DNA of 63,701 nucleotides, filler included. It is 16 parts of 16 records of this genome, joined end to end, with 100 filler letters (N's around TTAATTAATTAA, not from the genome) between each part and the next. Parts side by side here need not be neighbours in the genome. Positions count along the whole stretch, not along the records: positions 1 to 5,237 come from SRR7504441_128042; positions 5,338 to 8,734 come from SRR7504441_128063; positions 8,835 to 12,588 come from SRR7504441_128067; positions 12,689 to 19,492 come from SRR7504441_128111; positions 19,593 to 22,614 come from SRR7504441_128200; positions 22,715 to 26,024 come from SRR7504441_128528; positions 26,125 to 29,268 come from SRR7504441_128879; positions 29,369 to 33,032 come from SRR7504441_129083; 8 more parts are not named here. The stretch is one strand, 5' to 3'. Of this stretch, positions 1,145-43,288 are shown piece after piece. A program made the translations under genes and the position numbers. Each line of letters starts with the position of its first letter. Within the stretch, counting starts at the first letter, position 1. The notes below the pieces were generated by a model, which was given only the letters and a program-made list of their open reading frames with translations, made no database searches and was not told the DNA's origin.

Positions 1145-2146
1145 ATGGAAGCCGCACCGGTCGAGTTCACCCCGCTCAAGGCCGGCCTCGCGAGCCTGGG
1201 CAGCAGCGAGCTGGCCGACCAGCTAGCCAAATGGTCGGGCGCACCCCCCGGCCGGTCCGAGCGGCCAGCAGGGGCCTGGATCACCACCGTCGAGTGCTAA
1301 AGTTCCGTTTCGACCGACCGTTCGATCCGCTCGAGGCCCAGAGCTTCATCCGAGACTTCTTCGCCGCCCCCGCGGTGCAAGAGCGGTTCGAGGCCACTGC
1401 CTTCGCTCTGGATGGCGCTGAGTCTGACGATGCAGGTCCTGGACCGGCAGGGTGGATGGACAGGGGGCCCCGGGGCGCCGGCCGCAGTGCAGTCAGAGCA
1501 CCTGCTCACCACTGTGACCAAGCTGAGCTATTTCGACATGCTCAAACAGTCCGGTGTGCTCGCGTCCCTCCCGTGCACTGAGCGGTTGGCGGCAGATATG
1601 CCCGGCGGTCCGATTGTGCATGAGAATGGAAGAATCGCTGGCTGCCTCGAGGAGTGGGAGGAGGGCATGCTATTGCCCGACCGGCTGCGGGTGGCGCTGG
1701 CCAAGCCAGACGCCGAGGAGTACGAGGCATTCCCGCTCAGCGCCCGTCGTGAAGTGATTACGACGCTGTTCCGGTGTGCGGGCCGAGGGTTGGGAGTGAC
1801 GTGGGGCTAGGCACTTGGCATTGGGGGGTGGGATGAACCAATGGGAGGAGGAAATCGGGCCGTATATCGCGGCGACCAAGGCGCTGTACAAGGACATGCT
1901 CACTGTACGGAAGAATCGTGACACTAAGCAAATTGAGATCACCACTCAAGTCTACAAGGCGAGTTGATTGATTGGAGTCGTTGGGGTACGCTGTACTCAC
2001 GGTGGCGGCAGGTCGAAAGCGTGGATGCGCAGGTATCACTGTTCGCGCGCCCGGAATCGCCGAACAATTTGTGCCTGCTGTGTGTGGATCCGGTGCCACG
2101 TACGGTGCTCTGTTACTATTTCAGCTGGTATAACGCGCTTGTTTGA
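1145..2146 (+). CDS. CFAP300: Cilia- and flagella-associated protein 300 (C11orf70/DNAAF17) homolog, 4 introns
   Basis: Spliced product has KWGL, FRFDRPF, SYFDML, DRLRVAL, LFRHLALGGGMNQWEE, TKALYKDMLTVRK and CLLCVDP, matching CFAP300. Introns 1393-1435 and 1959-2011 have GC donors. Confidence 0.9.
1393..1435 (+). other. GC-AG intron (43 nt) in CFAP300
   Basis: GAG|GCCACT...CTGACGATGCAG|GTC joins PAVQERFE to VLDRQGGW. The only in-phase GT alternative would delete VQERFE. Confidence 0.75.
1959..2011 (+). other. GC-AG intron (53 nt) in CFAP300
   Basis: AAG|GCGAGT...GGCAG|GTC gives TQVYK-VESVD. Apart from +2 C the donor is a near-consensus U1 match. Confidence 0.85.
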
Positions 2147-2283
2147 TTGCACTAACCAACCAGATAACTGATTACTTGGTGTTATCGGTGACGAACGAGT
2201 TTAATTGAAGCCCATACACCTCGCCTTGTATGCACACGCGTTTAATAATAACTGGCCATTGCACACATGCAGCCAGCGCCTCA

Positions 2284-3464
2284 TCACACAAAGTTGCTAT
2301 CCAAATCGCGGCTATTGTACAAGTAAACCGAGCAACTGACCACACTCATGCCCAGCAGATACTCGAAAGAGAGGTGCGTCCCAAACACCAGCCCCGAGAG
2401 CATCCCGGTGAACACCACGGAGATGGCCGTCCCGTACCCCTTGAGCACCGCATCGGCGAACTTGAGCACCCCTGCTACGACCAGCCCTCCGACCGCCGAA
2501 TTGACGATCGCAATATACGCCGCCGTGTTGAAGTTATGCCAGAGTCCGTTGGCTAGGATCTTTTCGTGATCTTTGACCATAGCGTACGGTCCGATGATCA
2601 TCAGCGAAGCCAGCGCCATCTGAACTTGCATGTACGCCAACGAGTAGTTCGATCGCCTGAATTGTCCGCTCTCCTGCTCGGCGGCCTGTGCAGCGGTGTT
2701 AGACTTGATGACCCGTTCGGTGTAGACCGACGCAAAGCCCGAGAGCAGCGCGATGCAGATGGTGGCCACAAGACCGATCATCTCCTGGGGAATTTCGCCC
2801 CCGCGTAGAGAGACTAGTGAGACTAGCAGCGCAGTGCCACTCCGACCAGGGATCCTATCCGATCGGAGATTGGCTAGCATCACACCACACGTGAGCAGCA
2901 GCAGCGACACCCCCTGCGCCTTGCGGAGGTGCTTCTTGAGGAGCACCACCGAGAACACGGCCGTGGTGATCAATTTAGACTGGACGACCACCGAGAACAT
3001 AGAGGCGTCGATATTGGACAGCGCCACGTATTCTAGGGTCTGCTGGATAATGTAGACGGTGGCCGGTACCATCAGCAGCAGCATGGTGTACCAGTCGTGC
3101 CGGAGAAACTTGGCGATAGACCCGAGCGAGCCCCTGTCCACAGCCAGCACGTACCCTACCGAGAGTAGGCATTTAGTCAGCTCACACCCGATCACCGCGG
3201 CTGAGTAAAGGATGTCTGGCTTATCCTGCCCCCCTGCTCGCCCGGCCCGCCGGTGCGGCCGCGCGCCTTGAGCGCGGCGCGGATGGCGATGTTTTTGAAG
3301 GTGTTTTGGAATACGAGCAGTGCGAGGACCCGCAAGCCCATTGGGGAGATCCCGCCCCAGCCGACCGACTTGGTTTTCTCATCCTTGGTCTTCTCATCTT
3401 CGAGTGTCCCGGCCGGCTCGGTCCCGGGCACGACCTCCCCCTTCTCCGGATCCTGAGCGACCAT
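2284..3464 (-). CDS. SLC35A-family nucleotide-sugar transporter
   Basis: AVIGCELTKC, MVPATVYIIQQTL, QSKLITTAVFS, LSGFASVYTE and GGLVVAGVLKFADAVLKGY motifs; multi-TM. GC-AG intron at 3226-3266. Alternative ATG at 3524. Confidence 0.9.
3226..3266 (-). other. GC-AG intron (41 nt) in nucleotide-sugar transporter
   Basis: AAG|GCGCGC...GGGGGCAG|GAT joins IRAALK to DKPDILYSAAVIGCE. No GT lies within the interval. Confidence 0.85.
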
Positions 3465-3534
3465 TCGCCGTCTCGCTGGGTGGCTCTGGTGCCTTCGTGG
3501 AATCCGAATAACGGCATCATCCATCTGCCGGACA

Positions 3535-4077
3535 ATGACGCTCCCGCCGTGGTGGATTCTGAACAGTGCGGCGCCGCCAGGGGTCGCCTCACCGGGTGGC
3601 AGATGTGACCCCTGCCGGGCCCGATCGGGACATGGGTGGGTGGACGGCCGTCTCCTTCTCGCCCGAGCAGCAAGCCAAATACGGCGTCAACGAAGCCGGT
3701 GCCCCATCCCGCCGCCGCCGGTCAAGCCGTGGCCAGGAGAGATTGTTGACCAGGCCAAGCACACGGCCGCGCTCGCCGAGGGCCCTCCGGCGGCCGTGAT
3801 CGCCGCCCCAAAGACCAGCTGGCCTGAACTAGTCGGCAAGCCCGGCCCCGAGGCGGTTGCGGCCATTCAAGGCGCGAAGGGCTAGGGGCGGGGGCTGATC
3901 TGGGGACAGCGGATCGGCCGGACCTGACCAGCGTGTGCGAGGTGCCGCACGACGCGATGGTGACGATGGACTTTCGGGAGGACAGAGTACGGGTGTTTGT
4001 TCAGGACGGCGCGGTGCGGCTGGCCTCATCTTGGCACCAGCGGGAGGCAGGTGCAGCGGCCACCCCAGTGCGGCTGA
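3535..4077 (+). CDS. Potato inhibitor I (MEROPS I13) family protein with N-terminal extension, 4 introns
   Basis: Spliced C-terminus KTSWPELVG...EAVAAIQADRPDL...VTMDFREDRVRVFV...PPQCG is the I13 signature. Confidence 0.9.
3872..3909 (+). other. GC-AG intron (38 nt) in I13 gene
   Basis: CAAG|GCGCGA...CTGATCTGGGGACAG|CG restores AIQ-ADRPD and removes an in-frame TAG. Confidence 0.85.
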
Positions 4078-4262
4078 GCAGCCGACGCAAGAAGCGGTTA
4101 TTGTAGAATGTGATGTTCGTGTCTCGTGACGCTAGGTACTACTGCGTTTACTGAACGAGACGAGTACGCGCTTTATGTATTGTATCAACTTCCTGTACAA
4201 TCCTCTTTCTTTAGAGTGTGCACATAAATATCTACAAAGGCTCGGAGTACATCTGCTGGAAG

Positions 4263-5180
4263 CTATTCTATGAAGTCTTGCGTTGCAATTATTATTGGGT
4301 ATTTATTATTCAATAGATCTTCATCGAGCGGTTGCGGCGCCGCCGTTCTGATAGTTGGTTCCCAAATTTCTCGCCGGCGCTCTCCTAAACAAGATAGACC
4401 GCCGCCCCGACCCGAGCGCTGCCCACCACCAGTCAGTGGCCCACCACTGCAACACCACTGACCGGGCACTGCATTACTTCTTACAGTCGACCGCTTGAAC
4501 CCGATTGGCCGACTGACTGGTAGCGGCGGGGTGGCTTTGATAGCTGCAGCCACACTAGCCGCCACTGCCGGCTCTTCTAGACTTGACTCGGCCGCTGCCA
4601 CCAGGCTCGGCTAGTGAGCGAGGCAGGCAAGTGCCTGAGACGGCTGGGGAGGCGTCGATCACGAAGCTAGCGGTGCGGCACTCCAGATGGGTCCGCACCT
4701 GGCTGCTGCTTCGGCCCTCGAATTCATCCAGTTGTCTCCCTAACTCCCCCCACGAGCCGCGCAGCCGCGAGAGCTCGTCGGCCCGCGACTGCCGCCACTC
4801 AGCCCGTGCCCAGTATCTAGGAGAAGCGCCTGATGCAGCTGGCTACCCACTAGAGTTAGCTGGCTGCCAGGCAGATCGCCAGGACTGCTCGTTGGATCGC
4901 TACTTCTAGTAACCTGCCGCTGCACCGAAACCAAGCTGCAGCCCTGGGTCTCAGGCAGGGGCCGGCGTTGCATGCTGCCTGTTGCCCAGTCGGGAAAGAT
5001 CCCTCTGGAGCCCCTTGACCCCTCGAGTCCAGCCCTCCCCCACCACCGCCTTATGCTCAGCCACCTGCCCACGCTGCCTTAACTTTGAGCCGGGCTCAAT
5101 ACTAGAGACACTCCACAAGCGTTTCTTGCATGAGACTGAGAAAAAGATGCACAAGGTTTGGGATGAGATACTGTCTGTCC
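4263..5180 (-). CDS. Hypothetical multi-exon protein (model unresolved)
   Basis: Coding-like segments in different frames (RYWARAEWRQSRADELSRLRG...; ...LLNNKYPIIIATQDFIE*). No family recognised. Confidence 0.3.
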
Positions 5181-5237
5181 TTTAGAGTGATGCTCTTGTA
5201 CTGTACTGGTGGGGCTCATTACTACGATCAACTTTGG

Positions 5238-8670: not shown

Positions 8671-8835
8671 TAGGCGGCTAGTAGAAGCACCCTTAGCGCA
8701 TTAGCAAGTGTCTTGTAGAGCAGTAGCCGTTGTCNNNNNNNNNNNNNNNNNNNNNNNNNNNNNNNNNNNNNNNNNNNNTTAATTAATTAANNNNNNNNNN
8801 NNNNNNNNNNNNNNNNNNNNNNNNNNNNNNNNNNG

Positions 8836-11800
8836 GTCGATTTCGATATCCCGCTGTGGAGTGGAGCAAATTTGCAGAACATCTCGCTGACGTTTACTGA
8901 AGCTGATGGACAGAACATGGTTTTCGACATTGCTGCCACTGCCTCTATCTTGTTGCCGATGAGTGAACACCCGAAGGAGCTGCAAGTGGAAGGCAAGCTG
9001 GCAAATGACATCATCACTGTTTCTTCCGAATTATTTGATAGTTCTCGTCAGGTTTGGAGCTTTCAAATGCAGCCTGGACGACGCAGCAGTAATACATTTG
9101 ATATGCATGATCTCATGATAGAGCTCGCCGTACCCCTGGCGCACCCTGCTGAATCACACGCGACTCTCAGTGGTACCATGGAGTTTGATACTGTTATGCT
9201 GAACATGAAAATGCTCATGCCGTCATCTGACGGTACTTTCTGCCTACTTGGTGATGCAGCAGCAAACCAGGACACCAGCAACATCACTGCTTTGAGCGCA
9301 GCTGCAGCAACTGGTGGCGCCCTTACACCCTATGGGAATACTGCTTTATTCGACAAGCTGGCATCAGTTGCCTTTGTTGGAGCTCAGTTCAATTTCACCT
9401 TTAAGCCGGCGACGAGCGAACTAGATTTATTTGTGGCGGCTCAAGTATTGCTGTTCCATGGCAGCGAGCTTCTGGACGCTGAGCTATTTGTAAAAAAAGC
9501 ATCTGGTAATGAGCTTGGCGTGGGGTTTGCTGTGGCCTTGTCATCACAATTCCAGTTCTCGGATATTGCCACTGGCTTGCAGGCTTTGGACCAATACAAT
9601 TGGGGCTATGCTGTGCTTTGCCTGTCAAGCTATGCTAACCAGTTCTTCTTCCCGCACATGAACCGTACAGTGAACATGAACGCGCCTGGAGTTAGCTTTG
9701 ATGCAATCTTCCCAGTGACAGAGCATTCTTCTCTTGCACCACTACAAAAATGGTACGGAAGTGGTGACATCCAAGTATACGCACGCTTTGGCGCCGATGA
9801 CGACTCACTGACAATAGGGTCTCAACTCGATTTTACATGGAAATGGACCGACACTGTAAGCATGACCTCAGCACGCCTCTTCTTTACAGTGGGGCAGTCC
9901 AAATTGATGGTTTCTGTGGATGGCACCCTGAGCATAATTAACACAGCAGACAACAGTGTTGTTCCATTCACAGGAGGTCTGGGGTTCGACTTTGCTACTA
10001 GTTCAATCGACGCCAAGTTTAGCATGCAAGCAGACTGGGAACAACCCCTTGGCCTCAAGGGGGTGACTCTGAAGCAGAGCGAGCTCGAGGGTGCGATCAA
10101 CATTGAAACAGGAATCCCAACGAAGTTTGGAGTCTCTTCTGGTCTGATGATTAGGCATCATAGTGGCAGTGCTAGTGTCGTAATTGACGTGGCATCCCCC
10201 AAGAACGACCTATTTGCTGGTGAGATTGATGAGCTGGATGTTGCTGGCATCGTTCGTGACCTCACATTCCACACAATCCCGGATTCAATCGACACGACCC
10301 TATTCAATATGAAGGCATCCAAGATTGCAGCCTCTTACTCAGCTAGCCCAGCACCAATCACTTATGCAGGTCACACCTATGCCCCAGGTTTCCACCTGGA
10401 AGTGGACCAGCTGGACCTCTACGACAAACTCAAGGGCAACGGCAGTATTGACGTGCTACCTTCAGCAGGTGTCGAAGTCCGCGCATCAGTGGCCCCCTTC
10501 AGTATCGCAATGCTCACTTTTGAGGGCTTTGGTAGCTCCTCAGGGAACCAACTCCCAATGACTCTGGATGTGACTGTGATGAAAGGCAAGAGTGTCGCAC
10601 TAGGATTGAGTGCCGAGATATCGATCTGGCAACATGACAACCTCGGTGTACTGCTCAACGTATCAGACAACGGCTATGAGGTGCAGATCGATAACCATCT
10701 GATCGATAACATGCTGAATGCTTCATTTGACCTCAAGAGCGTGGGCCCGAACAGTCATCCCACCGATTTTTCTGTTACGGGAAGCGCTGAGCAAAGCCTC
10801 TGCGACTGGCTTTCTACGGAAGGTGTTGCTTATATCGAGAACATCAAAAATGCAATCGAGGGCCAGCTCACAAAAGACAAAGAAGCTGTGGATACCTGGT
10901 TTAGCAATCCTGATGGACAGGATGCACTTGACAAGGTCGATGACCAAATTGATCGTGCAGAGCAAGCGATGCTGGGAGTTTTTAGTGCTGTACAGCAAGA
11001 TCTGGCTAAAGCCCAACAAAAGCTATCAGACCTAATTCAAGCCAATCAGAAGCTGAGCGCCCAAATCGCCCAGGAAGAGACGGAAAAGCGCTCATGCCAC
11101 TGGACCGATGTCGCGTGTGACGTGCACAATGCTTGGGTCGATACTAAAGTCGAAGCCCTGCGGGTAGAGCAAGGCCTCAAGAGCGCAGCGCTGAATCTAG
11201 CAAAGGATGTAGTTGAAGGGCTCAAAAAATCTGTCGAAGGGGCCTCGTCAGTAGTTGTCGATGCAGACTTGGATGCCAAGTACGCAGCAAAAGCCACGCT
11301 CAGTGCTGCTCAGTTCGTAGTCGACGCAGCCCTGAACGCCAGCAAAACACTCACTGCAGACATTGGCCAGCTGACCGAGTATGCCGCTAGCAAAGCTTCC
11401 ACTGCCATCAACCTCAAAGAGATCAGCTTCTCAGGTGAGCTGTCGACAATCAATGGCGACGGTTCTCTCTCTTGTCGCCTGCAGGGTGTGTTCTTTGGGC
11501 ACGTCCTGGATCGCACCTTCTCCACCAAATTTGGCGACAGCCAAACAATCCTCAAGGAAATCCAGGATATGATGAAGAAAAAGTGGATCTCGAGCGACAT
11601 TCAAGTCGCAAATGGCACCGGCACCGATCCAGGGTCTGGAGGGTCGGTATTCGACTTTTGCAATTCGTACGGCAGCTGCACAGAGTGCAACGGTGCCAAG
11701 AGCCAGGATGGTACCAGCTGTGGCTGGTGCCAGCTTAGCGACGAGGACGGCATCTGCTCTGCTGGCTCAGCGCAAGGGCCAGCAACCGAGGCTGGGATCT

Positions 11801-12252
11801 CCTCATGCGACGATTGGCGGTTCGGCACATGCAAGGCGCCACCCCCGCCCCCTCCAGCACCGCCAGCATGTCCACTAGACTTCAATGATCAGACTTGCGC
11901 TGGCTCAGCCGGTGGCCAGTGCGATACGTCGACGTGGAAGTGCAACTGTCGCGAAGGGCGACAGGGCGATGCCTGTGAATTCGACTGTCACACACTCACT
12001 ATCCCCAACCCGAGACACGACGGCAAGCCTGTCGACATAGATGGAGGCAGCTCTGCAGCAGATCAACTGTGCAAGGAGACGTATGGTAGCCACAGCCGGC
12101 AACTACACTACAGCAAGAGCGGATGTGTCAATGAAGCTAGTTACATGGTGAAAGGTGGCACCTGTCAACACCATTGGTACAACTTTGGTGCATGTGTGTG
12201 CCACGCAATCATCAATGTTCAGTGCAGCAATCCAGCTGCTTACTGCACATAG
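8836..12252 (+). CDS. Large mosaic protein (5' partial): beta-rich region, amphipathic helical region, PSI-like and EGF-like Cys modules
   Basis: Uninterrupted >1130-codon frame from the contig start. PSI-like CNSYGSCTEC...CGWC...C, poly-Pro linker, EGF-like CAGSAGGQC...CNCREGRQGDAC. Confidence 0.85.
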   Translation, partial: VDFDIPLWSGANLQNISLTFTEADGQNMVFDIAATASILLPMSEHPKELQVEGKLANDIITVSSELFDSSRQVWSFQMQPGRRSSNTFDMHDLMIELAVPLAHPAESHATLSGTMEFDTVMLNMKMLMPSSDGTFCLLGDAAANQDTSNITALSAAAATGGALTPYGNTALFDKLASVAFVGAQFNFTFKPATSELDLFVAAQVLLFHGSELLDAELFVKKASGNELGVGFAVALSSQFQFSDIATGLQALDQYNWGYAVLCLSSYANQFFFPHMNRTVNMNAPGVSFDAIFPVTEHSSLAPLQKWYGSGDIQVYARFGADDDSLTIGSQLDFTWKWTDTVSMTSARLFFTVGQSKLMVSVDGTLSIINTADNSVVPFTGGLGFDFATSSIDAKFSMQADWEQPLGLKGVTLKQSELEGAINIETGIPTKFGVSSGLMIRHHSGSASVVIDVASPKNDLFAGEIDELDVAGIVRDLTFHTIPDSIDTTLFNMKASKIAASYSASPAPITYAGHTYAPGFHLEVDQLDLYDKLKGNGSIDVLPSAGVEVRASVAPFSIAMLTFEGFGSSSGNQLPMTLDVTVMKGKSVALGLSAEISIWQHDNLGVLLNVSDNGYEVQIDNHLIDNMLNASFDLKSVGPNSHPTDFSVTGSAEQSLCDWLSTEGVAYIENIKNAIEGQLTKDKEAVDTWFSNPDGQDALDKVDDQIDRAEQAMLGVFSAVQQDLAKAQQKLSDLIQANQKLSAQIAQEETEKRSCHWTDVACDVHNAWVDTKVEALRVEQGLKSAALNLAKDVVEGLKKSVEGASSVVVDADLDAKYAAKATLSAAQFVVDAALNASKTLTADIGQLTEYAASKASTAINLKEISFSGELSTINGDGSLSCRLQGVFFGHVLDRTFSTKFGDSQTILKEIQDMMKKKWISSDIQVANGTGTDPGSGGSVFDFCNSYGSCTECNGAKSQDGTSCGWCQLSDEDGICSAGSAQGPATEAGISSCDDWRFGTCKAPPPPPPAPPACPLDFNDQTCAGSAGGQCDTSTWKCNCREGRQGDACEFDCHTLTIPNPRHDGKPVDIDGGSSAADQLCKETYGSHSRQLHYSKSGCVNEASYMVKGGTCQHHWYNFGACVCHAIINVQCSNPAAYCT

Positions 12253-12688
12253 GATCTGCTGACACTGTAAGAATCCGCCGACAAGTTTCCTCGGTACAAC
12301 TTCGGTACAACACGCAAATGGCGCATTGCATGCCTGGCAAGGCACACAAACAAGACAAACCCTGGAAGAGTTAGAGAACATGTACATTTATTTCCAATGA
12401 TGTAAATCATCAATGAACAAAAATTAGAATACTATATATATATATGACTCCGGAACAGCTTTATTCAAGTACCGGTAAAGGTCCTACGAGTATCAACTCT
12501 ACCTCTATGGGTCGCATAGGTTTGCCATATTAAATGGCCGTAATGGCTTAGTTCGGTATGCGCTGGCCAGGGCTGCCCGAGCGCAGGCNNNNNNNNNNNN
12601 NNNNNNNNNNNNNNNNNNNNNNNNNNNNNNNNTTAATTAATTAANNNNNNNNNNNNNNNNNNNNNNNNNNNNNNNNNNNNNNNNNNNN

Positions 12689-15600
12689 AGGCTCTGTGGG
12701 AGGCTCTGTGGGAGGCTCAGTTTCAATTTGCTTCACAGCAATGCTCAACACTGTTTGGCTTGTGGTGGTTTTTGGAAGGGTTGTGATGCCAGCGCCCACT
12801 GTCTTGGAGAACACATGCAACAAATTGCCACTGCCGTGATTGGTGCCGATTGTTTCATCATGATTCAACCGAACAAAACCTGCATTTGGTAAACTCGATA
12901 CGAGGCCACCATCACGGTTATTACGGTCGCCTGATTCGACTGAGACAAACAAAGTTGCAGCCGAATTTACTGTGATGGTAATTTCCGTGTTCCTGTCAAT
13001 GTGCTTGTGTGGCCCCACGAATAATGTAGCATCCTTCATCTCGTCAGGGACGCTCTGTACTCTGTAATTTCGATCGTCCCATATGAGAGCCCCGGTATTC
13101 AGAGTCGCTTGTGAATTTCTGATCCCATGGACAGATGATGTAAAATCGCTGAGAAGCCGCCGAGAGCTCTTCTTCTGTCCCTGTACATCCAGTAACTGGT
13201 CTGTTTCTTCTGGTTCCTCGCAATAAAAGTCTGCGGCATATCTGTGCGGCCCCTCAACCATTGTTTCATCAGTGTCTGAAGGCTGATCTGCTGCTCGCTT
13301 GTTGCTCCGGCCGAGGTAGCACTTCTGACCATTGTCGTTTCGTGTATATATTGGTGACTCCTGCTGCAACGGCGTACAAACAACCCCAATGTTGTCATTT
13401 CCAGGTTGTCGATCATTGTTGACTTCGGAATTGCACTGGGCTATAGTGTGCTCGGTGCTGGAGCAATCAATATCCCCCATAACTTGTGGTGCGACCACCT
13501 TGGCATAGCATGTTGTGCATCCTTCTGAAGTCGTCAGAGTGCACGTGTCCCCATTCAGACAACGGATTTTACCCTGGTCGGTTGCATCAGCATTGCCATC
13601 AACCACAATGTCGTTAACACCAGACCCAATGGCGCAATCCTCACAATGCATCGAGTACGTCGGGTATTGCTCGTCATCCTCACAATGCCCCCAGGAGCTG
13701 GTCAACTTGTGGCACCACCTGACAGACCCAGACCAAGCATCGTTGTTCTCATTTCTGAGTGAGACAGTTGGACAATGGTCCAGACACGACTCCCACACTG
13801 TTTCGCCTTTGCTGAACAGCTGTGAACTTATCTCTTCTTCGCCATCAATTATAACCGTGAGATAACCATCGTTCTGGTCATCATTGCCAGTCACAATTCT
13901 GATGCATAGTCCCCGCTCATTATGTCCCTCGGTGAAATACCCATGGTTTGTCCAGGAAAAAGTCAGTGGTACTCTCAATGATCCAAAAAAATCCACGGCC
14001 GTTGTCATGGTGATTCGATTCGCGGATGACGACGATCCGTCTTGGTCGCACAAACCTTCTTTGGTGTGGCAGTAAACGACAAAAGAAGACCTTCCCCTTC
14101 GCTGGAAACCGATGCACGACGGTTGTTTACGACACTTCTTTTGCATCACCAGGGTATCAGATGCTTCGAAAATTCCATGGGGTGGAATCTGCAAGCCGCT
14201 GTCCCGACATCCACCAATCCCGATGCCTCTAAAGTCACCACTCCTGTCACCGAAAACGCCACCAGTTGTCGCCTGGAGTGCTGAACCAAACCCAAGCTGC
14301 CGGCAAATGACCTCTGCACCTTTGTAGGCCTGCTGGTTCCCGTCGGTTGAACCTCCTTGAGTCCAGTCTTTGTCGGCAACTCTCCACAGTAATATAACCA
14401 TCATTATAAGTGCCACCTCCTGTTACAATCCTGACACAACTGTTGTGGTCGTCTGTTCTGAAGTCCAAATCAACTCCTTTCGGATAAGGCTCGTCAAGGT
14501 CATCAATGATCCACCGAGGCCCAACATCCGCTTGATTGCAGTCTGGATCCCAATAGATTGATGCAGTGTTGTCATCTGATCCGTACCAGAACCGGTTATT
14601 ACCCCCATCATATGGTTTGACGTCTCTGGGGTAAAATTTCTTGCTGAAAATGGCATTGTCATTCGTACATGTGGTTCCACTTATTTCAAACGCTGTTGCT
14701 ATCGTTTTACCTGCTTGATTACACACACTATTGCTAGTGGTGCAGTATACTTTGCAAGTATTAAGGTGACAAGTGAATCCTTTGCACGATTCAGAGTTGC
14801 GACACCAATCCTCAGTAGGCCCTGGACCACCCTGATAGCTTCCCCAATATGGATGTACAAACGTTGTTTGATCACCTTGACCTGAATCACTAGCTATGTC
14901 CTCTCCACGGCATTCTCCTCGTCCAATCAGCTCGAAACGAGGTTCTGTTGAGGTTTGGTACACTTCGACTCTGCCTCCTCTGCCCTGGCTGTTGCCCTTG
15001 GATGAATGGTCAACCAGTCGGACTGAGCTTGACACTATTGTATCCAAAGACTCAAACTCACATTCTATGCTCACATCCTCCGTGTGTTTACAGTCATGCA
15101 TTCCATGCGAACCATGCATTGACCTACTTGAGGTATACAGTCCTTCTTTGAGAGGACAGTATAACAAACCTGCCTCATTGCCATTGCAACCAACTTCATC
15201 CAAATGGATCGGGCCTTGACCGGGGCCGTAATGAGCAGTAGTAGCACCACTAGAACTACCGTAAATATGAACAGCATGACCCATGCCAAGCTGCCGACAG
15301 ATCACATGTGCAGACTCTGCGGTAAATCCATCGTCGCACACAGTCCCCCAATCGCCATTGATCAGAACTTCCACACGACCTGCATTTCTCTTGTTGTCTC
15401 GGTCGTTGACTAGTCGAACAAACGACCTAGTATCTGCTTTGACCATGCAGTCCCCAAACTGGCTATCACCATTACCAGTAGTCACATGAGAGGCACCTGT
15501 ACCTTTATGAATGCAAAGCCCACCAACAGCAGTGCAGTAAACAATAGCACTGGTTTCCGAGAACGAATATGCCAAACATGAATCGTCGAGAAGACACTGA

Positions 15601-29368: not shown

Positions 29369-30654
29369 GAGGACCTTCGGCTTAAGCTGCTGGGATACAG
29401 CGGATCAAACGAGGGCATCCCAAGGAGCATCGGCGTAAGCATGCCTGCAGCAGACCTGGCCTCAGGGTCGTCCTTGGCGTATGCGACAGTGGCAAGAGTC
29501 TTGGCGGCGCTGCTCGTCGACGAGCTGAGGCCGCCGGAGGTGAGCACAGAAATCACTTGTGCAACACCCATCGCACCGTAGATTGCCACGCCCTGGCTTG
29601 CGCGGATAGCGATGTCCACGGGCGGCTTTGGTGTTGGTGCGGCAGAGGTTGGTGGGAAGGTTGGTGTTGGGAAGGTTGGTAGGAGAGATGGTGCTAAGGT
29701 CGGTGCAGTGGTTGGCTGGAGGTAACCGTAAATCGTCCCTGTCATCCCGACCGCGAAGATCGCAGAGGCACTCGCGACTGCCACATCCAATAAATTTGGT
29801 CTTGTCCCCGAGGTTTCGACCACCCAGTTAATCCCTCCGTCAGTTGTTGAGAAGATGGATGAGCCCGAGTTGCCGACCGCATAGCCTGCTGTGGGACTCG
29901 CGAATGCGACGCCGAACAAATCACAGGTGCTCAACCCGCCGTTGTGCTGCATGATCCACGCGCTGCCGCCATCCGTGGTGCTCATAATCACTGCACGGAA
30001 GCCGACCGCCCAGCCCACAGTGGTGCTAAGAAACTTCACTTGCAACAGGTCCTGTGTGGTCAGCCCGGTGCCTTGCACTGTCCACGTGCTGCCCCCGTCC
30101 GCGGAGGCCAGGATGATCCCGTTGGTGCCCACCGCCCAGCCCTCAGTCGCGCTCGGAAAATCGACCCCATTCAGATCGCACCCCGCCTGTGTGTGCAGGT
30201 GCGCCCAGTTGACTCCGCCGTCTGTAGTGCCCACGATCACCCCATTTTGTCCGACCGCGAATCCCACCATGGTGCTTGGGAACGCCACAGCGTACAGACC
30301 GGATATGCCTGCTGGCAGGGTCTGAAGCGCCCAGATGGCGCCGCCATTTGTCGTCGCTACAATCGTCGAGCCACCGGCCGCAAAGCCCACCGTGGTGCTA
30401 GGAAAGGCTACGCCCCTCAGCCCGGCATTCGTTAAGGTTCCAGCTATCTGCACAAACCAAGTATCGCCAGCGGTATCGGTGGATAGGATCGTGCCACCCG
30501 CCCCGACCGCGAACCCGTGAGTGGCGCTCGGGAAGGCAACCCCATACAGCGGCACCGATGTCAGCGTCCCTGAGCCGCCGACCGGAGCCCATGTGGTTTG
30601 GGCCCGTGCGCTACCACAGCAGATCAAGACCAGCAGCAGTAGCCCTGCGGACAT
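29369..30654 (-). CDS. Secreted/surface YCF48-like (Asp-box/BNR) beta-propeller with Pro/Thr linker, 3' partial
   Basis: Signal peptide MSAGLLLLVLICCGSARA; about 7 repeats of L.GVAFPS.T.G.AVG..G.I..T.DGG..W; then PTxAPT linker and a hydrophobic segment. Confidence 0.85.
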
Positions 30655-30714
30655 TGCTCCTGTCGATCCTAACGGCTCGGCCTGCGACCTACTCGACTAA
30701 CGTTGTCCGGCCCG

Positions 30715-32825
30715 ATGCAGGCAAAGGGCTGGATCGATCGGGCGTTCGCCCCTGGCCTGGGGTGCCCGTCCGGACCGTCGCCAGCTGAGTTGGGGGGCAG
30801 TGCGTTGTTCAGGGACCCGGCCAACCCGCCCGCTCCGGCCCAGCTGGGCTACGACCCGCGCGACATCCAGTGGCTCCGGCCGGCCGAGTGGCGCGGCGCC
30901 ACAGCGCCCCAGTAGCCGGCCAGCTGGGCCCAGCCCGAGCTGGCGGGGCAGGCTATTCGTGGACGGGGTCGGGTCCAACGACGTCCAGCAGGGCGGGCTG
31001 TCTGAGTGCTGGTTGCTGGCTTCATTCTCGATCGTAGCTTCATTGGACCTCGTCAGGTCCCGCCAGCCCCGTGGCGGCTGTCAACGGGCCGTAGGGACTT
31101 GTTCGTGACGGCGGACGACGCCCCAGCCGGCAAGCACTCGGTCAGACTGTTCAAGGCGGGCCGGTGCGTCGGATCCGAGGGGGGCGGAAGGGCCGGCCAG
31201 GTGGGTGCTGGTGGACGTGGATGACCGGATCCCGTGCCTTCACCAGACCCCGCTGTACGGACGGAACACCGACCCGAACGAGAGCTGGGTCACAGTCCTG
31301 GAGAAGGCGTACGCCAAGCTGCACGGGTGCTACGAGGCGCTTGTCGATGGCGAGGCGCGCCTGGCCGGTGGGCACGGGCCAAGCATGGGCAGGTCGACTA
31401 CGGACTGCGAGACCTGACCGCGGGCATACCGCGCGAGATCGAGCTGCGCGAGCCGTCGGTGCAGGCCGGGCTGGAGCAGGGCGAGTTTTGGAACCGCTTC
31501 TCACTGCTGCGGGCCGACGGGCATTTGGTGCTAATGGGATGTGCGATTGTGCAAGACGTGGACAGCCACGAAGTGGACGTGGGGCACGGGCTGCTGCTCA
31601 ATCACGCGTACGGCCTGCTCGAGGTCTCGACCGCCATACCAGGCAATGGGCTCCACGCCTGAGCGCCTCACGCTCTGCTTTCAGGCAAGACTCTTCTCAA
31701 GCTCCGAAACCCGTGGGGAACTGGCGAGTGGAAAGGCCGGTGGGCGGACGCAGACAGCCAGTCGTGGACGCCCGGAGCGTGTCAGCTGCTCGGTCAGCCC
31801 AAGGGCGGCGCGGACGATGGGTGGGGCGGCTAGCGAGCCTGTAGTGAGATATGTGGCCAGCACCTTCTGGATGGAGCACACCGACTTTGTCGAGTATTTT
31901 ACGCACGTTTATCTCTGCTTGATTCCAACCGGCTGGTGGACTGTGCACAGGCGCGGCAGCTGGACCGACTCGACAGCAGGCGGCAGGGTAGTGCTTGCGC
32001 CGCCGGGCTGCTGAGCCGCTGGGTGCAGGTCAGCTGCGCTGAGTGGGGCTCCAACCCTCAGCTCAAGGTTGTGGTGAGCAGGCCGACCACCATGTGTGCT
32101 TCGCTCACGCAGCCCGATGCCAGGCACGGCCAACCACCAGCCCGGCTGATCGGACTGGCAGGTTTGAATCAGCCGGGCACGAGTGGAATGTGTATGATCG
32201 CAGCATTGGCTTTGTGATATACCGGCCTGGCCCAGATGGCAAGCCGAAGCGCAAACTCAAGCGCAAAGACATAGTCAAGAAGGAAAGCCCTAAAGCGGAC
32301 AGGGAGGTGAGTGTGATGCTCGATCTGAGTCCAGGCGTCTACTTCATGGTGCCCTACACGCGCAATCCAGGCGAGCAGGCCGACTTCTTCATCATGCTGC
32401 ACTCTAACCAGCCAGTCACAGCCGACGGGCTGACTGTCTGTGAGATGGAGGGCGAGGACGCGGTCACACGATTGAACACCAAGCTGCACTCCATGGCCGC
32501 AAGCGGCGGCGCTCCGCCTGAACAGCCCGCATCGGCAGTGCGCCGGCTGCCGGCTGAGACTGCTGAAGTGCATCTCTCGCGAGACGTGTCTCGGGTGCGG
32601 AGGGATGCGGCTGAGCGATCGGAGCAGCGATCGGTGGTGATTACCGTGCCGGCCGGGGCCAAGCCGGGGATGATGCTCAACGTGAAGCTGCTGGGAGAGA
32701 GCTACAAGATCACGGTGCCGGCTGGCGCAAGGCCAGGCCATAAGCTTAAAGCGTGGGTGCCCCGAGCTACGAGGACACGGTCAAAGAAGCCGCGGAGCCT
32801 TGCAGTTGTTAGAGTTCGGACGTAG
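30715..32825 (+). CDS. Calpain-like cysteine protease (CysPc + domain III + VPxGxxPG module), 9 introns
   Basis: Catalytic motifs QQGGLSECW, NHAY and KLRNPWG; also VDDRIP, LEKAYAKLHGCYEAL, WGSNPQ and GVYFMVPYT. Confidence 0.92.
31355..31392 (+). other. GC-AG intron (38 nt) in calpain
   Basis: GAG|GCGCGC...GGGCAG|GTC gives ALVDGE-VDYGLRDLT. The internal GT gives the wrong phase. Confidence 0.8.
31643..31684 (+). other. GC-AG intron (42 nt) in calpain
   Basis: CCAG|GCAATG...TTTCAG|GC AAG gives STAIPG-KTLLKLRNPWG. Nearby GTs are out of phase. Confidence 0.8.
32124..32161 (+). other. GC-AG intron (38 nt) in calpain
   Basis: CCAG|GCACGG...CTGATCGGACTGGCAG|G gives LTQPDAR-FE...SIGFVIY. No GT within the interval. 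Confidence 0.8.
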
Positions 32826-33132
32826 CGGATCGATACGAAGCCATGTAACTCTAATGTACAGTACGAGTACGAGTACAACTCACCGGTCGGTTGCAAGTAG
32901 ACGCATGCTGTACATAACCAAATCAAAATGAATGACGCTCGTTTTAGCCAATTATTAGTCAATCATGTACGAGTACACATCAATTGCTTGGTCCCGGGTT
33001 GCTCTGGAACGCTCTCTTGCGCTCGGTTTATANNNNNNNNNNNNNNNNNNNNNNNNNNNNNNNNNNNNNNNNNNNNTTAATTAATTAANNNNNNNNNNNN
33101 NNNNNNNNNNNNNNNNNNNNNNNNNNNNNNNN

Positions 33133-34144
<1,012 letters not shown>

Positions 34145-34320
34145 TCGTGATATCCAATACCAACCTTTGCGAACCGTGATGTTGCCCAGTGTGGTAGCGC
34201 CCTTTCTGGGTGGCGCCCCTGAGCATGTCTCTTATCTTGTATATCCGTCTCAACCGCTTCTGAGCACGGCGGGAAGCCTGCAGTCTTTTCTGCGGCGCCC
34301 CGCGTCTTGCAAAGCGACTA
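34145..34320 (+). other. ITS1
   Basis: Lies between the 18S end and 5.8S; boundaries approximate. Confidence 0.85.
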
Positions 34321-34477
34321 ACAGTTTTCACAGTGGATGTCTTGGCTCTCGCAACGATGAAGAACGCAGCGAAATGCGATACGTAGTGTGAATTGCAGAA
34401 TTCAGCGAATCATCGAAACTTTGAACGCACATTGCACTTGTGTGCTTCGGCACCGAGAATGCCTCTTTCAGGGTCAT
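34321..34477 (+). rRNA. 5.8S rRNA
   Basis: CGATGAAGAACGCAGCGAAATGCGATA, GAATTGCAGAATTC and TTTGAACGCACATTG; ends approximate. Confidence 0.97.
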
Positions 34478-34726
34478 CGACCCACACCTCACCCCTCCCC
34501 CAAGCCTGGCTCCGGTCGGGCCTGGGGCGAGCGCGGATCGCAGCATGGGCGTCCTGCGGCACGGTGCAACACCCGAGCCTAAGCACGTCGCCTGAAGCGC
34601 ATCGGCTATAGCAGGCCGGCCGTCCTCGTGTGGCGCGACGCAGTAAGCGCGGCTCCGGCTGCCCTCTCGTCGCCGCCCGGCGGCTGGTCCTTTGCGGGCC
34701 GGACAACCAACCCAAACCACCCCGGT
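34478..34726 (+). other. ITS2
   Basis: GC-rich spacer between 5.8S and 28S; boundaries approximate. Confidence 0.85.
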
Positions 34727-36750
<2,024 letters not shown>

Positions 36751-40367: not shown

Positions 40368-40475
40368 CTAGCCANNNNNNNNNNNNNNNNNNNNNNNNNN
40401 NNNNNNNNNNNNNNNNNNTTAATTAATTAANNNNNNNNNNNNNNNNNNNNNNNNNNNNNNNNNNNNNNNNNNNNA

Positions 40476-41265
40476 AGGCAAGTCCACCTCGCCTCGCAGC
40501 CCTCGAGGCAAGTCCACCTCGCCTCGCAGAGATTCACGGTCTCAATCGCCTGGTGGGCGCCAGCGCATGTCGGATCCACGACACCAGTCGCCCACACGGG
40601 CGCGGGATCAGGCTGCCGCGGCTCTGGCCGCAGGTGTGCTCGACGCGACTGAGAGCTCAAGGACCGCATCGCCGCGCTCACAAACCAGCTCGAGGTCTGT
40701 TTCGCCTCGCAGCCCCAATGCAACGCCTCCTTCGGCCCGCAGCCCACGTGCTCTGCAGTCCAGAGGGAGCTCGAGGTCTACCTCGCCTCGCAGCCCAAAG
40801 CGCAAGTCTGCATCACCTCGCACCGTGAAAGGCTCCGCCTCGCAGCCACACGTTGACGAACTCTCAACTGCCACTGTGCTCGGGCACTTCCGGCAGCAAG
40901 CGGCAAACGCGGGCAAACTAAGCTCGATAAGTCCATCACGCCAGAGCTCTGGTTCTCCGCTGGCCGAAAGAAGCTCTCGATCTCCGGGCAGCCCCCGTTC
41001 TTTGCCAAGACTCGAGCGCCGGTCAGCGGAATCCAAAGAGAAGGATTGGATTGTTCATTCGCTCAAGGAGCAGTATGCCACCCAAGTGGCGTTGGTTGAT
41101 ATGCTCGAGCAGAACGTGCTAGGTTTGCTGGAGAAGGCGAGTAGCCAAATCGCGATTGACACATGGATTGGCAACCTGAATGAAAGCAAGGTACTCCTTG
41201 TTAATTTCGAACTCCAAGTTGAGCACGAATTGAGCTACAGGAACTTAGACCCCTGTGGGTTGTAA
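40476..41265 (+). CDS. Ser/Pro/Arg-rich protein with SPR repeats, 5' partial
   Basis: Frame open from the contig start: GKSTSPRSPRGKSTSPR..., followed by a helical C-terminus. 30-bp tandem unit at 40476-40530. Confidence 0.6.
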
Positions 41266-41472
41266 AAAGCAAGTACATGTACTCGGACATGTCAGCACTT
41301 ACTGTACGAGTACGAACTGACTTATTATAGTTTACAATACATGTATTATCAACAGTTTGTGAACTATTGCATGATTACATTATTGCATCCGAATCGCATT
41401 TTTAATCGCAAGCTGAAATTCTATGCATCCGTACTCGGAAGTTGTTACTCAAGTATTGCGCTCAAGTGACTA

Positions 41473-43288
41473 TCAAGGGACAGGGTCATAATGCCCATAG
41501 TTGAGGAGCACTGTTGGATCGTAGTAAGCCAATCTGTCGCGAATCCGTTTGTTGTCCTTGATGAGCGACCTCAAATGTGTTGAGCCTTTAGGTTTGTGCC
41601 CAGAGCGCCACTGCACCACTGGCATAGGTACAACTGTAAATTTGCGCAACTGTGTTTCCAAGTCTTCGCGTTCACGCAGCAAGCGTTTCTGATGGGCCTC
41701 AATCCACTCCCCCGTGGTGCAGTCACACTGCTTCAAGATTGTCGGCTTGCCGAGTAACAGCACTTTTGTTCCGACGTGAAGATCCCAGTGGTCGAGCCGC
41801 CGCCCACCGAGGCCACACACCTCTGGAAGGTCAAATGCAACCCCGTGTTGTACCACCACGTGCCACTTTCCGCTATCTGGATGGAAGAGCACGTCCATAT
41901 ACTGCTTCACCCCTCGTTCGTGGTACCATGACTTGAACGCCAAGACTTTGGGGGTTGCGAGTGCAGCATCCTTTGCCCGCTTCTTCTTCTGAACAGATAC
42001 TGGCACCATGCCAGACGGCTGTGGGGCCTTCACGTTCATTGTATCAGGCAGGTCTGCTGACGGCACAGCAGCCGCCGTCTCGCGAGTGATCACATTGAAG
42101 AAATAGGTGGTCCCTCTATCATCCACAAACTCCAACCAGGGTGATTTATCTGAAGGCGGTGCCATACCTGTTGCCACGATGTTACCAACGCCAAAATAGC
42201 GGTCTCACCGGCAGTGGAACCTTGCGCGTGTAGCGTTGTGAGCCTCTGCCATTTCAGCTGCCGTTCTTGCTTGATTTCATCCAGGAAGAATCTATCAGAA
42301 GGATGTTGACGTGTCACTTTGCCAGTAACCTGGGAAGTAAAGCTTAGGACAAGCGCGCCCTCTATATCAGCTTGCCTTGCAATGAAAATACGGGTGTCCG
42401 GACTCATCCATATACTGCGCCCAGTCTCTAGGCAATGGAGCTATCACCTGCACCCCATTTCAGTTCAAGCCCTAAGGGTGGCTCCACCGCTTGTCGAGCT
42501 ATCCAGAGAAGGTCATACTCGGTCCGCACATCAATCCCGAGGTAATCAGCCATCTCAAGCACTTCTTCTGGAGTCACCGGCAGAGGCTCGCTGCTACTTT
42601 CGGGCAGGTCTGGGTCACTAGGAGCCGGTGTGAAAGGCCGTGTCAGCTCCGGTTCTTCGTCATCCTCTGCAGCGCCAGCTGCAGCTTGGTCCATCTCTAT
42701 TCCAGCTTCCGATTGCAGTACCGACTCGTCATGGTCCTCTTCGGGCCCAACAGGAGGGTCCTCTGTTGGCTCCGCCTCGGGCTCTGCTGTGGCCTCAGAC
42801 TGGTCAGCGCCTGACTTTCCGGTCGCCTCTTCGGCACATGGCTGAATCGCTAACTCCTCCGACGCAGCCGGCTCGGCCTCCGATTGGCTCGGTTCTTCGG
42901 CTGCTGGCTCCTCGGGGCTGGCCGGCTCGGGAGCCACAGGCGCCTCAGCTGGCTCGGGCTGGGCCGCCTGTGGCAGTCCCACTTCGGCTGCTGGCTCCAT
43001 GGCGGCAGCCTGCTCGGTCGGCTCGGACTCAGCTGCAGGCCCGCCAGCTGCAGGTTCGGCGGACTCCTCGGCCGCAGCTGGCTCGGCTGGCTCGGGCGCG
43101 GCTGCTTGGGCAGGCTCGTCGGGCATAGCCGGGGACTCGGCTGCGGACTCTTGGGCCGGCTCAGGCTCGGCTGCTGGTGCCTCGACTGCCTCGAGTGGCT
43201 CGTCGGGTGCCGCCGACTCGGCTGGCACTGAGGCCGATTGCTCCGCCGCAGCTTCCGGCTCGCTGGCCGTCTCAGGGTCCCCTGCCAT
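41473..43288 (-). CDS. Acidic-repeat + CEP164-type WW + WW + DM10-like domain protein, 3 introns
   Basis: EEVLEMADYLGID...LLWIARQA-VIAPLPRDW...YFHCK-VTGKVTRQHPSD; second WW (PWLEF...TYFFN); C-terminal FKSWY...LFHPDSG...DLHVGTKVLLLGKPTIL. Confidence 0.75.
42330..42375 (-). other. GC-AG intron (46 nt) within WW domain
   Basis: AAG|GCAAGC...TTCCCAG|GTT restores YFHCK-VTG and removes an in-frame TGA. Confidence 0.85.

What the first reader, a model, noticed from the sequence alone, without database searches (positions are those of the whole stretch)
1393..42375. High rate of GC-AG introns, all following exonic AG
Seen: eight introns in five unrelated genes on three contigs can be spliced to the conserved protein only with a GC donor: 1393-1435, 1959-2011, 3226-3266(-), 3872-3909, 31355-31392, 31643-31684, 32124-32161 and 42330-42375(-). 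That is about 1 in 9 of roughly 70 hand-parsed introns (2/4 in CFAP300, 3/9 in calpain). All eight have AG at -2/-1, whereas GT donors here tolerate TG|, CG|, CA| and AC|. Most have little U1 match after +2 (GCGCGC, GCCACT, GCACGG). Established: GC-AG is about 1% in most eukaryotes and usually has a strong consensus; high rates are known in some haptophytes and dinoflagellates. Inference: donor recognition here relies on exon-side contacts, possibly an independent case in a poorly known lineage.
Basis: partly seen in the sequence, partly recalled or inferred. Interest (0 to 1): 0.75.

Follow-up and report, generated by a model that had tools for sequence, protein, structure and literature searches.

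The report
Frequent GC-AG introns after exonic AG
Eight very short introns in five genes of an uncultured, GC-rich marine stramenopile begin with GC instead of GT and always follow an exon ending in AG, which is a new example of a pattern already known from other GC-rich algae.

Summary
The window is 16 short eukaryotic contigs joined by N spacers. All eight segments sit at the stated coordinates, are 38-53 nt, read AG|GC...CAG, and restore the reading frame.

Evidence for the junctions:
- For seven, I tried every boundary pair within 30 nt and scored the peptides against homologues. The claimed junction ranked 1-15 of 444-541 peptides and beat every GT-AG alternative.
- For the eighth (inhibitor), Pfam profile positions run on without a gap. 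The same holds at three of the seven.
- Independent DNA contigs keep the GC at three donors.
- No RNA data exist, so splicing itself is inferred.

Rate and context:
Either is far above 1%.
- AG at -2/-1 occurs in 8 of 8 GC donors against 9 of 34 GT donors (p = 0.0002).

The intron side is not empty: purine at +3 in 7 of 8 and G at +5 in 6 of 8. Stronger flanks around GC donors are textbook.

Best protein hits are ochrophyte stramenopiles. High GC-AG rates in GC-rich algae are published for Aureococcus (14-40%), Pelagomonas, Micromonas pusilla and Emiliania.

Verdict: real, ordinary U2-type GC-AG introns and a new member of a known kind.

The parts
1393..1435 (+). GC-AG intron 2 of the CFAP300 gene, 43 nt, GAG|GCCACT...TGCAG|GT
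   Evidence: Frame restored. Pfam CFAP300 profile runs 64|65 across the junction. Rank 1 of 540 peptides against two transcript-derived orthologues; best GT-AG alternative 15 points lower.
1959..2011 (+). GC-AG intron 4 of the CFAP300 gene, 53 nt, AAG|GCGAGT...GGCAG|GT
   Evidence: In-frame stops if retained. Rank 1 of 465; gap-free alignment to orthologue P0123 across the junction; best GT-AG alternative 11 points lower. A DNA contig of run X3 covers 1773-2023 with one other letter in all, whose place is not listed, so the donor GC is most probably kept.
3226..3266 (-). GC-AG intron of the nucleotide-sugar transporter gene, 41 nt, AAG|GCGCGC...GGCAG|GA
   Evidence: Frame restored. Rank 1 of 541 against 20 homologues; no in-frame GT..AG pair within 30 nt. 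Donor unchanged in a contig of run X1 covering 3166-3457.
3872..3909 (+). GC-AG intron of a potato-inhibitor-I family gene, 38 nt, AAG|GCGCGA...GACAG|CG
   Evidence: Pfam potato_inhibit profile runs 1-20 | split codon 21 | 22-56. The only GT..AG alternatives delete 16 or more profile positions. A contig of run X2 that ends at 3877 shows no listed difference at the donor.
31355..31392 (+). GC-AG intron 4 of the calpain gene, 38 nt, GAG|GCGCGC...GGCAG|GT
   Evidence: Pfam Peptidase_C2 profile runs 152|153. Rank 2 of 488; best GT-AG alternative 8 points lower.
31643..31684 (+). GC-AG intron 5 of the calpain gene, 42 nt, CAG|GCAATG...TTCAG|GC
   Evidence: In-frame stop if retained. Rank 15 (or 8) of 444, and every better peptide has boundaries other than G[TC]..AG; best GT-AG alternative 11-13 points lower. 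Pfam positions agree within 3.
32124..32161 (+). GC-AG intron 8 of the calpain gene, 38 nt, CAG|GCACGG...GGCAG|GT
   Evidence: Frame restored. Rank 1 of 538; best GT-AG alternative 14-21 points lower.
42330..42375 (-). GC-AG intron inside the first WW domain of a two-WW-domain gene, 46 nt, AAG|GCAAGC...CCCAG|GT
   Evidence: Pfam WW positions 1-19 lie on the upstream exon and 10 downstream residues end at the final P. The spliced domain has the same length as the gene's own intron-free second WW domain. Rank 8 of 447; best GT-AG alternative 15 points lower.
47879..49062 (+). Comparison set: ten GT-AG introns of the CK2-alpha gene, 35-59 nt, three of them in frame and stop-free
   Evidence: Clean spliced frame. 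Pkinase profile positions agree within 1. PDB CK2-alpha alignment of the unspliced frame shows two 13-residue insertions exactly at 48502-48540 and 48638-48676.
30912..32028 (+). Comparison set: five GT-AG introns of the calpain gene (30912-30951, 31057-31094, 31164-31200, 31821-31860, 31988-32028)
   Evidence: Spliced frame. Boundary enumeration ranks 1, 3, 1, 1 and 9.

Best explanation
These are ordinary major-spliceosome (U2-type) introns whose donor is GC instead of GT. They belong to an uncultured, GC-rich, intron-dense stramenopile whose introns are only about 35-50 nt long.

In this genome GT donors carry little information beyond GT, a G at +3 and usually a G at -1. A T-to-C change at +2 removes one pair with the 5' end of U1. 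It is tolerated only where the exon ends in A(-2)G(-1), which together with G(+1) keeps a short continuous helix. GC-biased mutation pressure then fills those permissive sites.

Shown here: the coordinates, frame restoration, junctions fixed by homology, the link between GC donors and exonic AG, and a rate well above 1% in this sample.

Inferred: actual excision from RNA, recognition by U1, and the mutation-pressure origin.
For: Junctions:
- All eight are the best canonical-type solution by homology. The coincidence has a chance of about 1e-7.

Likeness to the GT-AG introns of the same genes:
- Length is 38-53 nt (median 42) against 35-75 (median 40).
- The acceptor is CAG in 8/8 against 31/34.
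- G is the first exon base after the intron in 7/8 against 23/34.
- Total match to the donor consensus is 5-7 against 4-8.

Exonic AG rule:
- AG at -2/-1 is found in 8/8 GC donors against 9/34 GT donors, p = 0.0002.
- Among AG-preceded donors, C at +2 is 8 of 17 (47%). This is not different from the C/(C+T) share of intron interiors, 0.62 (p = 0.22). Among the other donors it is 0 of 25.

Not U12-type: none of the eight starts GCATCC.

Not sequencing errors: contigs of independent DNA runs cover the donors at 3266(-), 3872 and 1959. Those over 3266 and 3872 list no difference there, and the one over 1959 has a single unplaced other letter in 251 bases.

Precedent in the literature:
- GC-AG makes up 14-17% of introns in Aureococcus and 14% in Pelagomonas (bioRxiv 10.1101/2024.10.30.620910, passages).
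- An earlier annotation gave 39.6% in Aureococcus and 22.2% in Micromonas pusilla, both with a canonical U1 5' end (PMC3033335, passages).
- Emiliania huxleyi has 56-65% (PMC4028052, passages).
- GC donors have stronger flanking consensus (PMC1557818).
Against: - No RNA evidence exists. No RNA run holds the sequence and no whole genome is held, so splicing and the genome-wide rate are unmeasured.
- The sample is 42 introns. Five of the 13 genes parsed were the ones flagged for GC donors. Where homology was lacking I preferred GT candidates, which may undercount GC donors that lack AG.
- There is one possible counterexample. In the MFS gene a frame change near 59918-59925 has no GT-AG solution that keeps the segment up to 59941 which extends the MFS_1 match; the GT-AG candidates listed remove still more of it, and the only GC-AG solution is a CA|GC...CAG segment at 59867-59907. 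I read it as a 1-nt indel, because the segment removed adds 6 bits to the MFS_1 match, but that is not proven.
- Homology-free statistics could not separate even GT from control dinucleotides, so they add nothing.
- U1, U5 and U6 genes are not in the window.
Confidence: 0.8

Rival explanations
1. A lineage-specific change in donor recognition. The 5' splice site would be chosen mainly through exon-side contacts (U5 loop 1, or an altered U1 or U1 protein), and the intron side after +1 would hardly be read.
For: AG at -2/-1 is invariant in the 8 GC donors. GT donors are weak beyond +3. With exonic AG, C at +2 is as common as expected for a nearly free position, 8/17 against 0.62. PMC3033335 calls the GC-AG abundance in GC-rich algae an enigma and suggests base modification or U1 proteins.
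Against: GT donors do not need exonic AG: 25 of 34 lack it. GC donors keep a purine at +3 (7/8) and a G at +5 (6/8). The same compensation is seen in animals and plants with a standard U1. In Aureococcus and Micromonas the U1 5' end is canonical. No snRNA of this organism could be inspected.
Confidence: 0.12
2. The window overstates the rate. The eight are real, but GC-AG is under about 5% genome-wide and the cluster here is a sampling accident.
For: There are only 42-70 introns on 16 small contigs. The 95% interval for 8/70 reaches down to 5%. Contig 2, which has lower GC, has no GC donor among the five introns parsed.
Against: The eight lie in five unrelated genes on three contigs. P(>=8 of 70) is 5e-7 at a rate of 1%. 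Related GC-rich algae show 14-40%.
Confidence: 0.1
3. The GC donors are sequencing or assembly errors, or strain variants, of GT donors.
For: The assembly is fragmented, with contigs of 3-7 kb. At least one probable 1-nt indel exists in the MFS gene.
Against: DNA contigs of three independent runs show no listed difference at the donors of 3266(-) and 3872. The one over 1959 has a single unplaced other letter, although differences are listed elsewhere. Eight T-to-C errors would all have to fall on +2 of donors that follow AG.
Confidence: 0.02
4. The segments are not introns. The genes would be pseudogenes, or would be read by frameshifting or with the segments kept.
For: No transcript data exist.
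Against: Removal gives gap-free alignment to transcript-derived orthologues and unbroken Pfam profiles in five genes. The segments have the length and CAG end of the GT-AG introns beside them. Retention gives stops or frameshifts in all eight.
Confidence: 0.02

Closest known systems
GC-AG-rich introns of GC-rich pelagophyte stramenopiles (Aureococcus anophagefferens, Pelagomonas calceolata)
   Same: Stramenopile algae with GC-rich genomes. GC-AG makes up 14-17% of introns, or 39.6% in an earlier annotation. The acceptor stays AG. The authors attribute the rate to GC content.
   Different: Those genomes have 0.2-0.9 introns per gene, with introns of 103-177 bp. Here genes carry 8-10 introns of 35-50 nt. 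One gene tree places the window outside the pelagophyte group. The passages I read say nothing about an exonic-AG rule.
Emiliania huxleyi (haptophyte) GC-AG majority
   Same: A GC-rich genome (65%), GC donors with an unchanged AG acceptor, and gene finders that miss them.
   Different: There GC is the majority donor (56-65%), in another supergroup. Here it is a minority (11-19% of the introns parsed).
Micromonas pusilla CCMP1545 and Chlorella sp. (green algae)
   Same: High genomic GC with 22.2% and 7.7% GC-AG. The U1 5' end is canonical in M. pusilla.
   Different: These are green algae. The sister strain RCC299 has only 2.7% at similar GC content, so GC content alone does not set the rate.
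U2-type GC-AG introns of animals and plants (0.4-0.9%)
   Same: Same spliceosome class. The donor flanks are closer to consensus than at GT donors, on the exon side as well, compensating for the +2 mismatch with U1. A similar conserved upstream AG flanks the GA donors of Eurytemora and Oikopleura (PMC7072748, passage).
   Different: The rate here is 10-40 times higher, and the intron side of the donors is much less conserved.

Membership tests
U2-type GC-AG spliceosomal introns | GC at +1/+2 and AG at the 3' end, at boundaries fixed independently of the dinucleotides | tested here: met
   Enumeration of all boundary pairs against homologues for seven introns, and Pfam continuity for four (three of those seven plus the inhibitor intron).
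U2-type GC-AG spliceosomal introns | Removal restores an open frame that is colinear with orthologues | tested here: met
U2-type GC-AG spliceosomal introns | The remaining donor positions are closer to the U1-complementary consensus than at GT donors | tested here: met
   A at -2 and G at -1 in 8/8, against 12/34 and 26/34 at GT donors. AG together gives p = 0.0002. G at +5 in 6/8 against 17/34.
U2-type GC-AG spliceosomal introns | Excised from pre-mRNA by the major spliceosome | not testable with these tools
   No RNA run was listed and no snRNA genes are in the window.
U12-type GC-AG introns | Donor GCATCC and a TCCTTAAC-like branch site close to the 3' end | tested here: not met
   None of the eight donors reads GCATCC. 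The motif definition is taken from PMC1557818.
GC-AG expansion in GC-rich algal genomes | High genomic G+C | tested here: met
   The three contigs with GC donors are 58-63% GC, and the intron interiors are mostly 50-90% GC.
GC-AG expansion in GC-rich algal genomes | GC-AG makes up several percent or more of all introns genome-wide | tested here: inconclusive
The whole genome is not held.
Introner-like (repeated, mobile) introns | The introns share sequence with each other beyond the splice signals | not tested
   I only noted by eye that three of the eight begin GCGCGC or GCGCGA. No alignment was made.

The most novel reading that the evidence does not exclude
In this uncultured, tiny-intron stramenopile the +2 position of the donor behaves as a two-state site. 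It is nearly free to be C or T when the exon ends in AG: C in 8 of 17, against 62% C among the C+T of intron interiors. It is strictly T otherwise: 0 C in 25.

If this holds genome-wide, the abundance of GC-AG in GC-rich algae, called an enigma in print, would reduce to GC mutation pressure acting on a conditionally neutral site of a minimal helix of about 3 bp with U1. The GC-AG rate would then be predictable from the share of AG-ending exons and the base composition.
Probability: 0.3. Interest if true: 0.5.

Novelty: new member of a known kind. Interest (0 to 1): 0.3.

Why it matters
Practical: gene finders that allow only GT donors would break roughly one gene in three in this organism. Five of the 13 genes I parsed carry a GC donor. 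Three of the ten CK2 introns are also in frame and stop-free, so they look like coding sequence.

Biological: this adds an intron-dense, tiny-intron stramenopile to the short list of GC-rich algae with abundant GC-AG introns. It also gives a clean, testable rule (GC only after exonic AG) that bears on why such genomes accumulate GC donors. It does not reveal a new splicing mechanism.

Tried and rejected
- Whole genome: none is held.
- RNA evidence: no RNA holder is listed. The three listed runs are DNA contigs with 5-6% of the sampled words. Laid on contig 1, they only show that related strains keep the sequence.
I then sent stop-free exons by reference.
- Codon-usage gene finder of my own. 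With all 16 donor dinucleotides, with GT+GC, and with GT plus one control dinucleotide at a time (GC 6 introns, controls 2-5), it mispredicted known junctions and recovered none of the eight. I rejected it as a census tool.
- Homology-free scans for AG|XY...CAG segments with coding flanks. In one search, GC gave 11 donors, GT 7 and controls 0-7. One search covered all prefixes. GT itself was not enriched over the controls, so these scans have no power.
- The search for homologous proteins with the largest CFAP300 exon found nothing. The full HMMER scan found 12 proteins, two of them full-length orthologues.
- The metagenome locus search gave one transcript-like contig, L001, and no genomic relative, so orthologous introns could not be compared.
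- snRNA search with Rfam, at gathering and at E <= 0.5: only rRNA was found.
- Earlier notes of this scan gave nothing on this genome.
- A GC-AG candidate at 59867-59907 (CA|GC) in the MFS gene, and gene-finder GC candidates at 28572, 48727 and 53994, were examined and replaced by GT-AG solutions or by a probable indel.
- A literature search for 'GC-AG' with 'dictyochophyte' found no paper.

Full report
WHAT THE WINDOW IS

The 63,701 bases are 16 contigs of 3.0-6.8 kb joined by N spacers. GC content runs from 49 to 67%. Contig 9 carries a partial eukaryotic SSU, the 5.8S and a partial LSU rRNA. No tRNA genes and no snRNA genes are present. No whole genome is held.

The eight claimed introns lie on contigs 1 (1-5237), 8 (29369-33032) and 11 (40475-43485).

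CHECK OF THE EIGHT INTRONS

Each segment reads AG|GC...CAG and is 38-53 nt long. Read through, six shift the frame and two (1959-2011 and 31643-31684) carry in-frame stops.

I built gene models that translate without stops:
- calpain: 9 exons, 598 aa;
- CFAP300: 5 exons;
- a nucleotide-sugar transporter: 2 exons;
- a potato-inhibitor-I protein: 3 exons.

Spliced proteins may not be sent to the database tools, so I sent single exons by reference and compared their positions in Pfam profiles:
- Peptidase_C2 runs 102-151(152) | 153(156)-225 across 31355-31392.
- CFAP300 runs 26-63(64) | 65(68)-157 across 1393-1435.
- potato_inhibit runs 1-20 | split codon | 22-56 across 3872-3909.
- WW positions 1-19 lie on the exon before 42375-42330, and the ten residues after it end at the terminal proline.

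For a test that does not assume any dinucleotide, I fetched homologues:
- 120 listed nucleotide-sugar transporters;
- two full-length CFAP300 orthologues, on contigs about as long as their coding sequence and so transcript-derived;
- nine calpains that have both domains.

For each intron I enumerated every donor and acceptor position within +/-30 nt that keeps the downstream frame. This gave 733-994 boundary pairs and 444-541 distinct stop-free peptides per intron. I scored the peptides against the homologues.

The claimed junction ranked 1/540, 1/465, 1/541, 2/488, 15/444 (8/444 with shorter flanks), 1/538 and 8/447. The last value is for the WW intron, scored against the gene's own second WW domain.

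All higher-scoring peptides come from boundary pairs that are neither GT-AG nor GC-AG. The best GT-AG alternative was 8-21 points worse, and for the transporter none exists.

The probability that at least one G[TC]..AG pair falls among the pairs scoring as high as the claimed one is 0.02-0.26 per junction. The product over the seven junctions is 1e-7.

The same test on seven GT-AG introns of calpain and CFAP300 gave ranks 1, 3, 1, 1, 9, 2 and 1. The method therefore recovers canonical junctions equally well. In poorly conserved stretches its resolution is about one codon.

For the inhibitor intron no homologue sequences were available. The only GT..AG alternatives would delete 16 or more residues that match the profile.

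ARE THE GC DINUCLEOTIDES REAL?

Three DNA runs hold short contigs 90-99% identical to contig 1. Records cover 1773-2023, 3166-3457 and 3696-3877. Those over 3166-3457 and 3696-3877 list differences elsewhere but none at their donors. The record over 1773-2023 has one other letter whose place is not listed.

The same contigs carry indels and substitutions clustered in 3705-3744, inside the GT-AG intron 3699-3739. That fits a non-coding segment.

No RNA run is listed, so excision itself is inferred.

HOW COMMON ARE THEY?

A codon-usage gene finder and two homology-free scans had no resolving power and were dropped. I therefore parsed genes by hand, with candidate lists.

- CK2-alpha has ten GT-AG introns. 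Pkinase profile positions agree within one. An alignment of the unspliced frame 48377-48814 to solved CK2-alpha structures shows two 13-residue insertions exactly at the in-frame introns 48502-48540 and 48638-48676.
- The Hsp70-TPR gene has four GT-AG introns. The HSP70 profile runs 192 | 193 | 194 across 27299-27336.
- An ABC-2 transporter has two. The ABC2_membrane profile runs 116(117) | 118 | 119 across 45264-45307, and ABC_tran ends at the exon end before 44432.
- The WW gene has two more.
- A rhamnosidase-like gene and two other genes have one each.
- I took five from an LRR gene.

Some of these rest only on frame logic and on motif periodicity that I recalled. Where no homology decided, I preferred GT.

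The total is 34 GT-AG and 8 GC-AG, which is 19% (95% interval 9-34%). P(>=8 | n=70, p=1%) = 5e-7.

DONOR CONTEXT

| Feature | GC donors | GT donors |
|---|---|---|
| AG at -2/-1 | 8/8 | 9/34 (Fisher p = 0.0002) |
| A at -2 | 8/8 | 12/34 |
| G at -1 | 8/8 | 26/34 (not significant) |
| G at +5 | 6/8 | 17/34 |
| Purine at +3 | 7/8 | 30/34 (G in 24) |
| Match to the canonical nine-position consensus | 5-7 | 4-8 |

The difference lies mainly at -2. The statement that the GC donors have little match after +2 does not hold.

Among AG-preceded donors, C at +2 is 8 of 17. This is close to the C/(C+T) share of 0.62 in intron interiors (p = 0.22). Among the other donors it is 0 of 25.

One unresolved junction could break the rule. 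The MFS gene changes frame near 59918-59925. The only GC-AG solution is CA|GC at 59867-59907, and the GT-AG candidates remove even more of the frame. That solution would delete a hydrophobic stretch that adds 6 bits to the MFS_1 match. I read the frame change as a one-base indel.

WHO IS IT?

The best named hits are:
- Triparma, diatoms, Pelagophyceae sp. and Chrysophaeum for the transporter;
- Chrysophaeum and Triparma for calpain;
- one cluster that contains a Pseudopedinella protein.

Identities do not exceed 60-67%.

A maximum-likelihood tree of the transporter puts the window, on a long branch, with unnamed environmental sequences. It falls outside the pelagophyte, Pseudopedinella and Triparma+diatom groups. 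This is a single gene, so the placement is tentative.

The organism is therefore an ochrophyte-like stramenopile without a close named relative in these collections.

WHAT IS KNOWN

- GC-AG makes up 0.4-0.9% of introns in five model species. Its donors are more conserved on both the exon and the intron side, which is read as compensation for the +2 mismatch with U1 (PMC1557818, passages).
- GC-AG is 'extraordinarily abundant' in GC-rich algae: Aureococcus 39.6%, Micromonas pusilla 22.2% and Chlorella sp. 7.7%. The two algae whose U1 was examined, Aureococcus and M. pusilla, have a canonical U1 5' end, and the authors call the origin an enigma (PMC3033335, passages).
- Newer long-read annotations give 14-17% for Aureococcus, 14% for Pelagomonas and 0.32% for the low-GC Aureoumbra (bioRxiv 10.1101/2024.10.30.620910, passages).
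- Emiliania huxleyi has 56-65% (PMC4028052, passages).
- A conserved upstream AG also flanks the GA donors of Eurytemora and Oikopleura (PMC7072748, passage).
- That dinoflagellates use GC and GA donors is my recollection. I did not check it here.

VERDICT

The eight GC-AG introns are real features of the DNA and almost certainly real introns. Their rate in this sample is ten or more times the usual one, and the exonic-AG dependence is statistically supported.

The mechanism most likely at work is the ordinary one: U1 pairing rescued by -2A and -1G, with GC-biased mutation filling the permissive sites.

This is a new member of a known kind. What is specific here is the combination with very short (35-50 nt), very dense introns, and the clean either/or pattern at +2. 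That pattern deserves a genome-wide test.

Noticed in passing
window 48136-48171, 48502-48540, 48638-48676 (+): Three of the ten CK2-alpha introns are multiples of three (36, 39 and 39 nt) and contain no stop, so they read as coding sequence. Two show up as 13-residue insertions against solved CK2-alpha structures. Such introns cannot be found by frame logic and would inflate predicted proteins.
   Followed up: yes
window 59867-59941 (+), MFS transporter gene: The reading frame changes by one base near 59918-59925 with no GT-AG solution that keeps the MFS-matching segment up to 59941. It is either a one-base assembly indel or a CA|GC-AG intron at 59867-59907 that would remove a transmembrane-like segment.
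   Followed up: partly
window 1-240 (+), start of contig 1: A direct repeat (about 2-42 and 194-238) is covered at 70-80 times word depth in two metagenome runs, against about 3 elsewhere. Contigs skip 152-165 bases between the copies. This suggests a high-copy or copy-variable repeat.
   Followed up: no
window 3699-3744 (+): Related-strain contigs differ from the window by two small insertions and several substitutions clustered inside the GT-AG intron 3699-3739 of the inhibitor gene, while the flanking exons are nearly unchanged.
   Followed up: partly
window 8835-19492 (contigs 3 and 4): These contigs are about 50% GC and carry very long frames without evident introns (1138, 839, 785 and 578 aa). 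This is unlike the 58-67% GC, intron-dense contigs. They could be a different genomic compartment or another organism in the bin.
   Followed up: no
window 33133-36750 (contig 9): Partial SSU, ITS1, 5.8S, ITS2 and about 2 kb of LSU rRNA. This would identify the organism against an rRNA database, which was not available here.
   Followed up: no
protein P0122 (Logan contig, relative of CFAP300): This genomic gene call from a related organism (57% identity) seems to read through an in-frame intron at a position where the window has none. It hints that intron positions differ between relatives.
   Followed up: no
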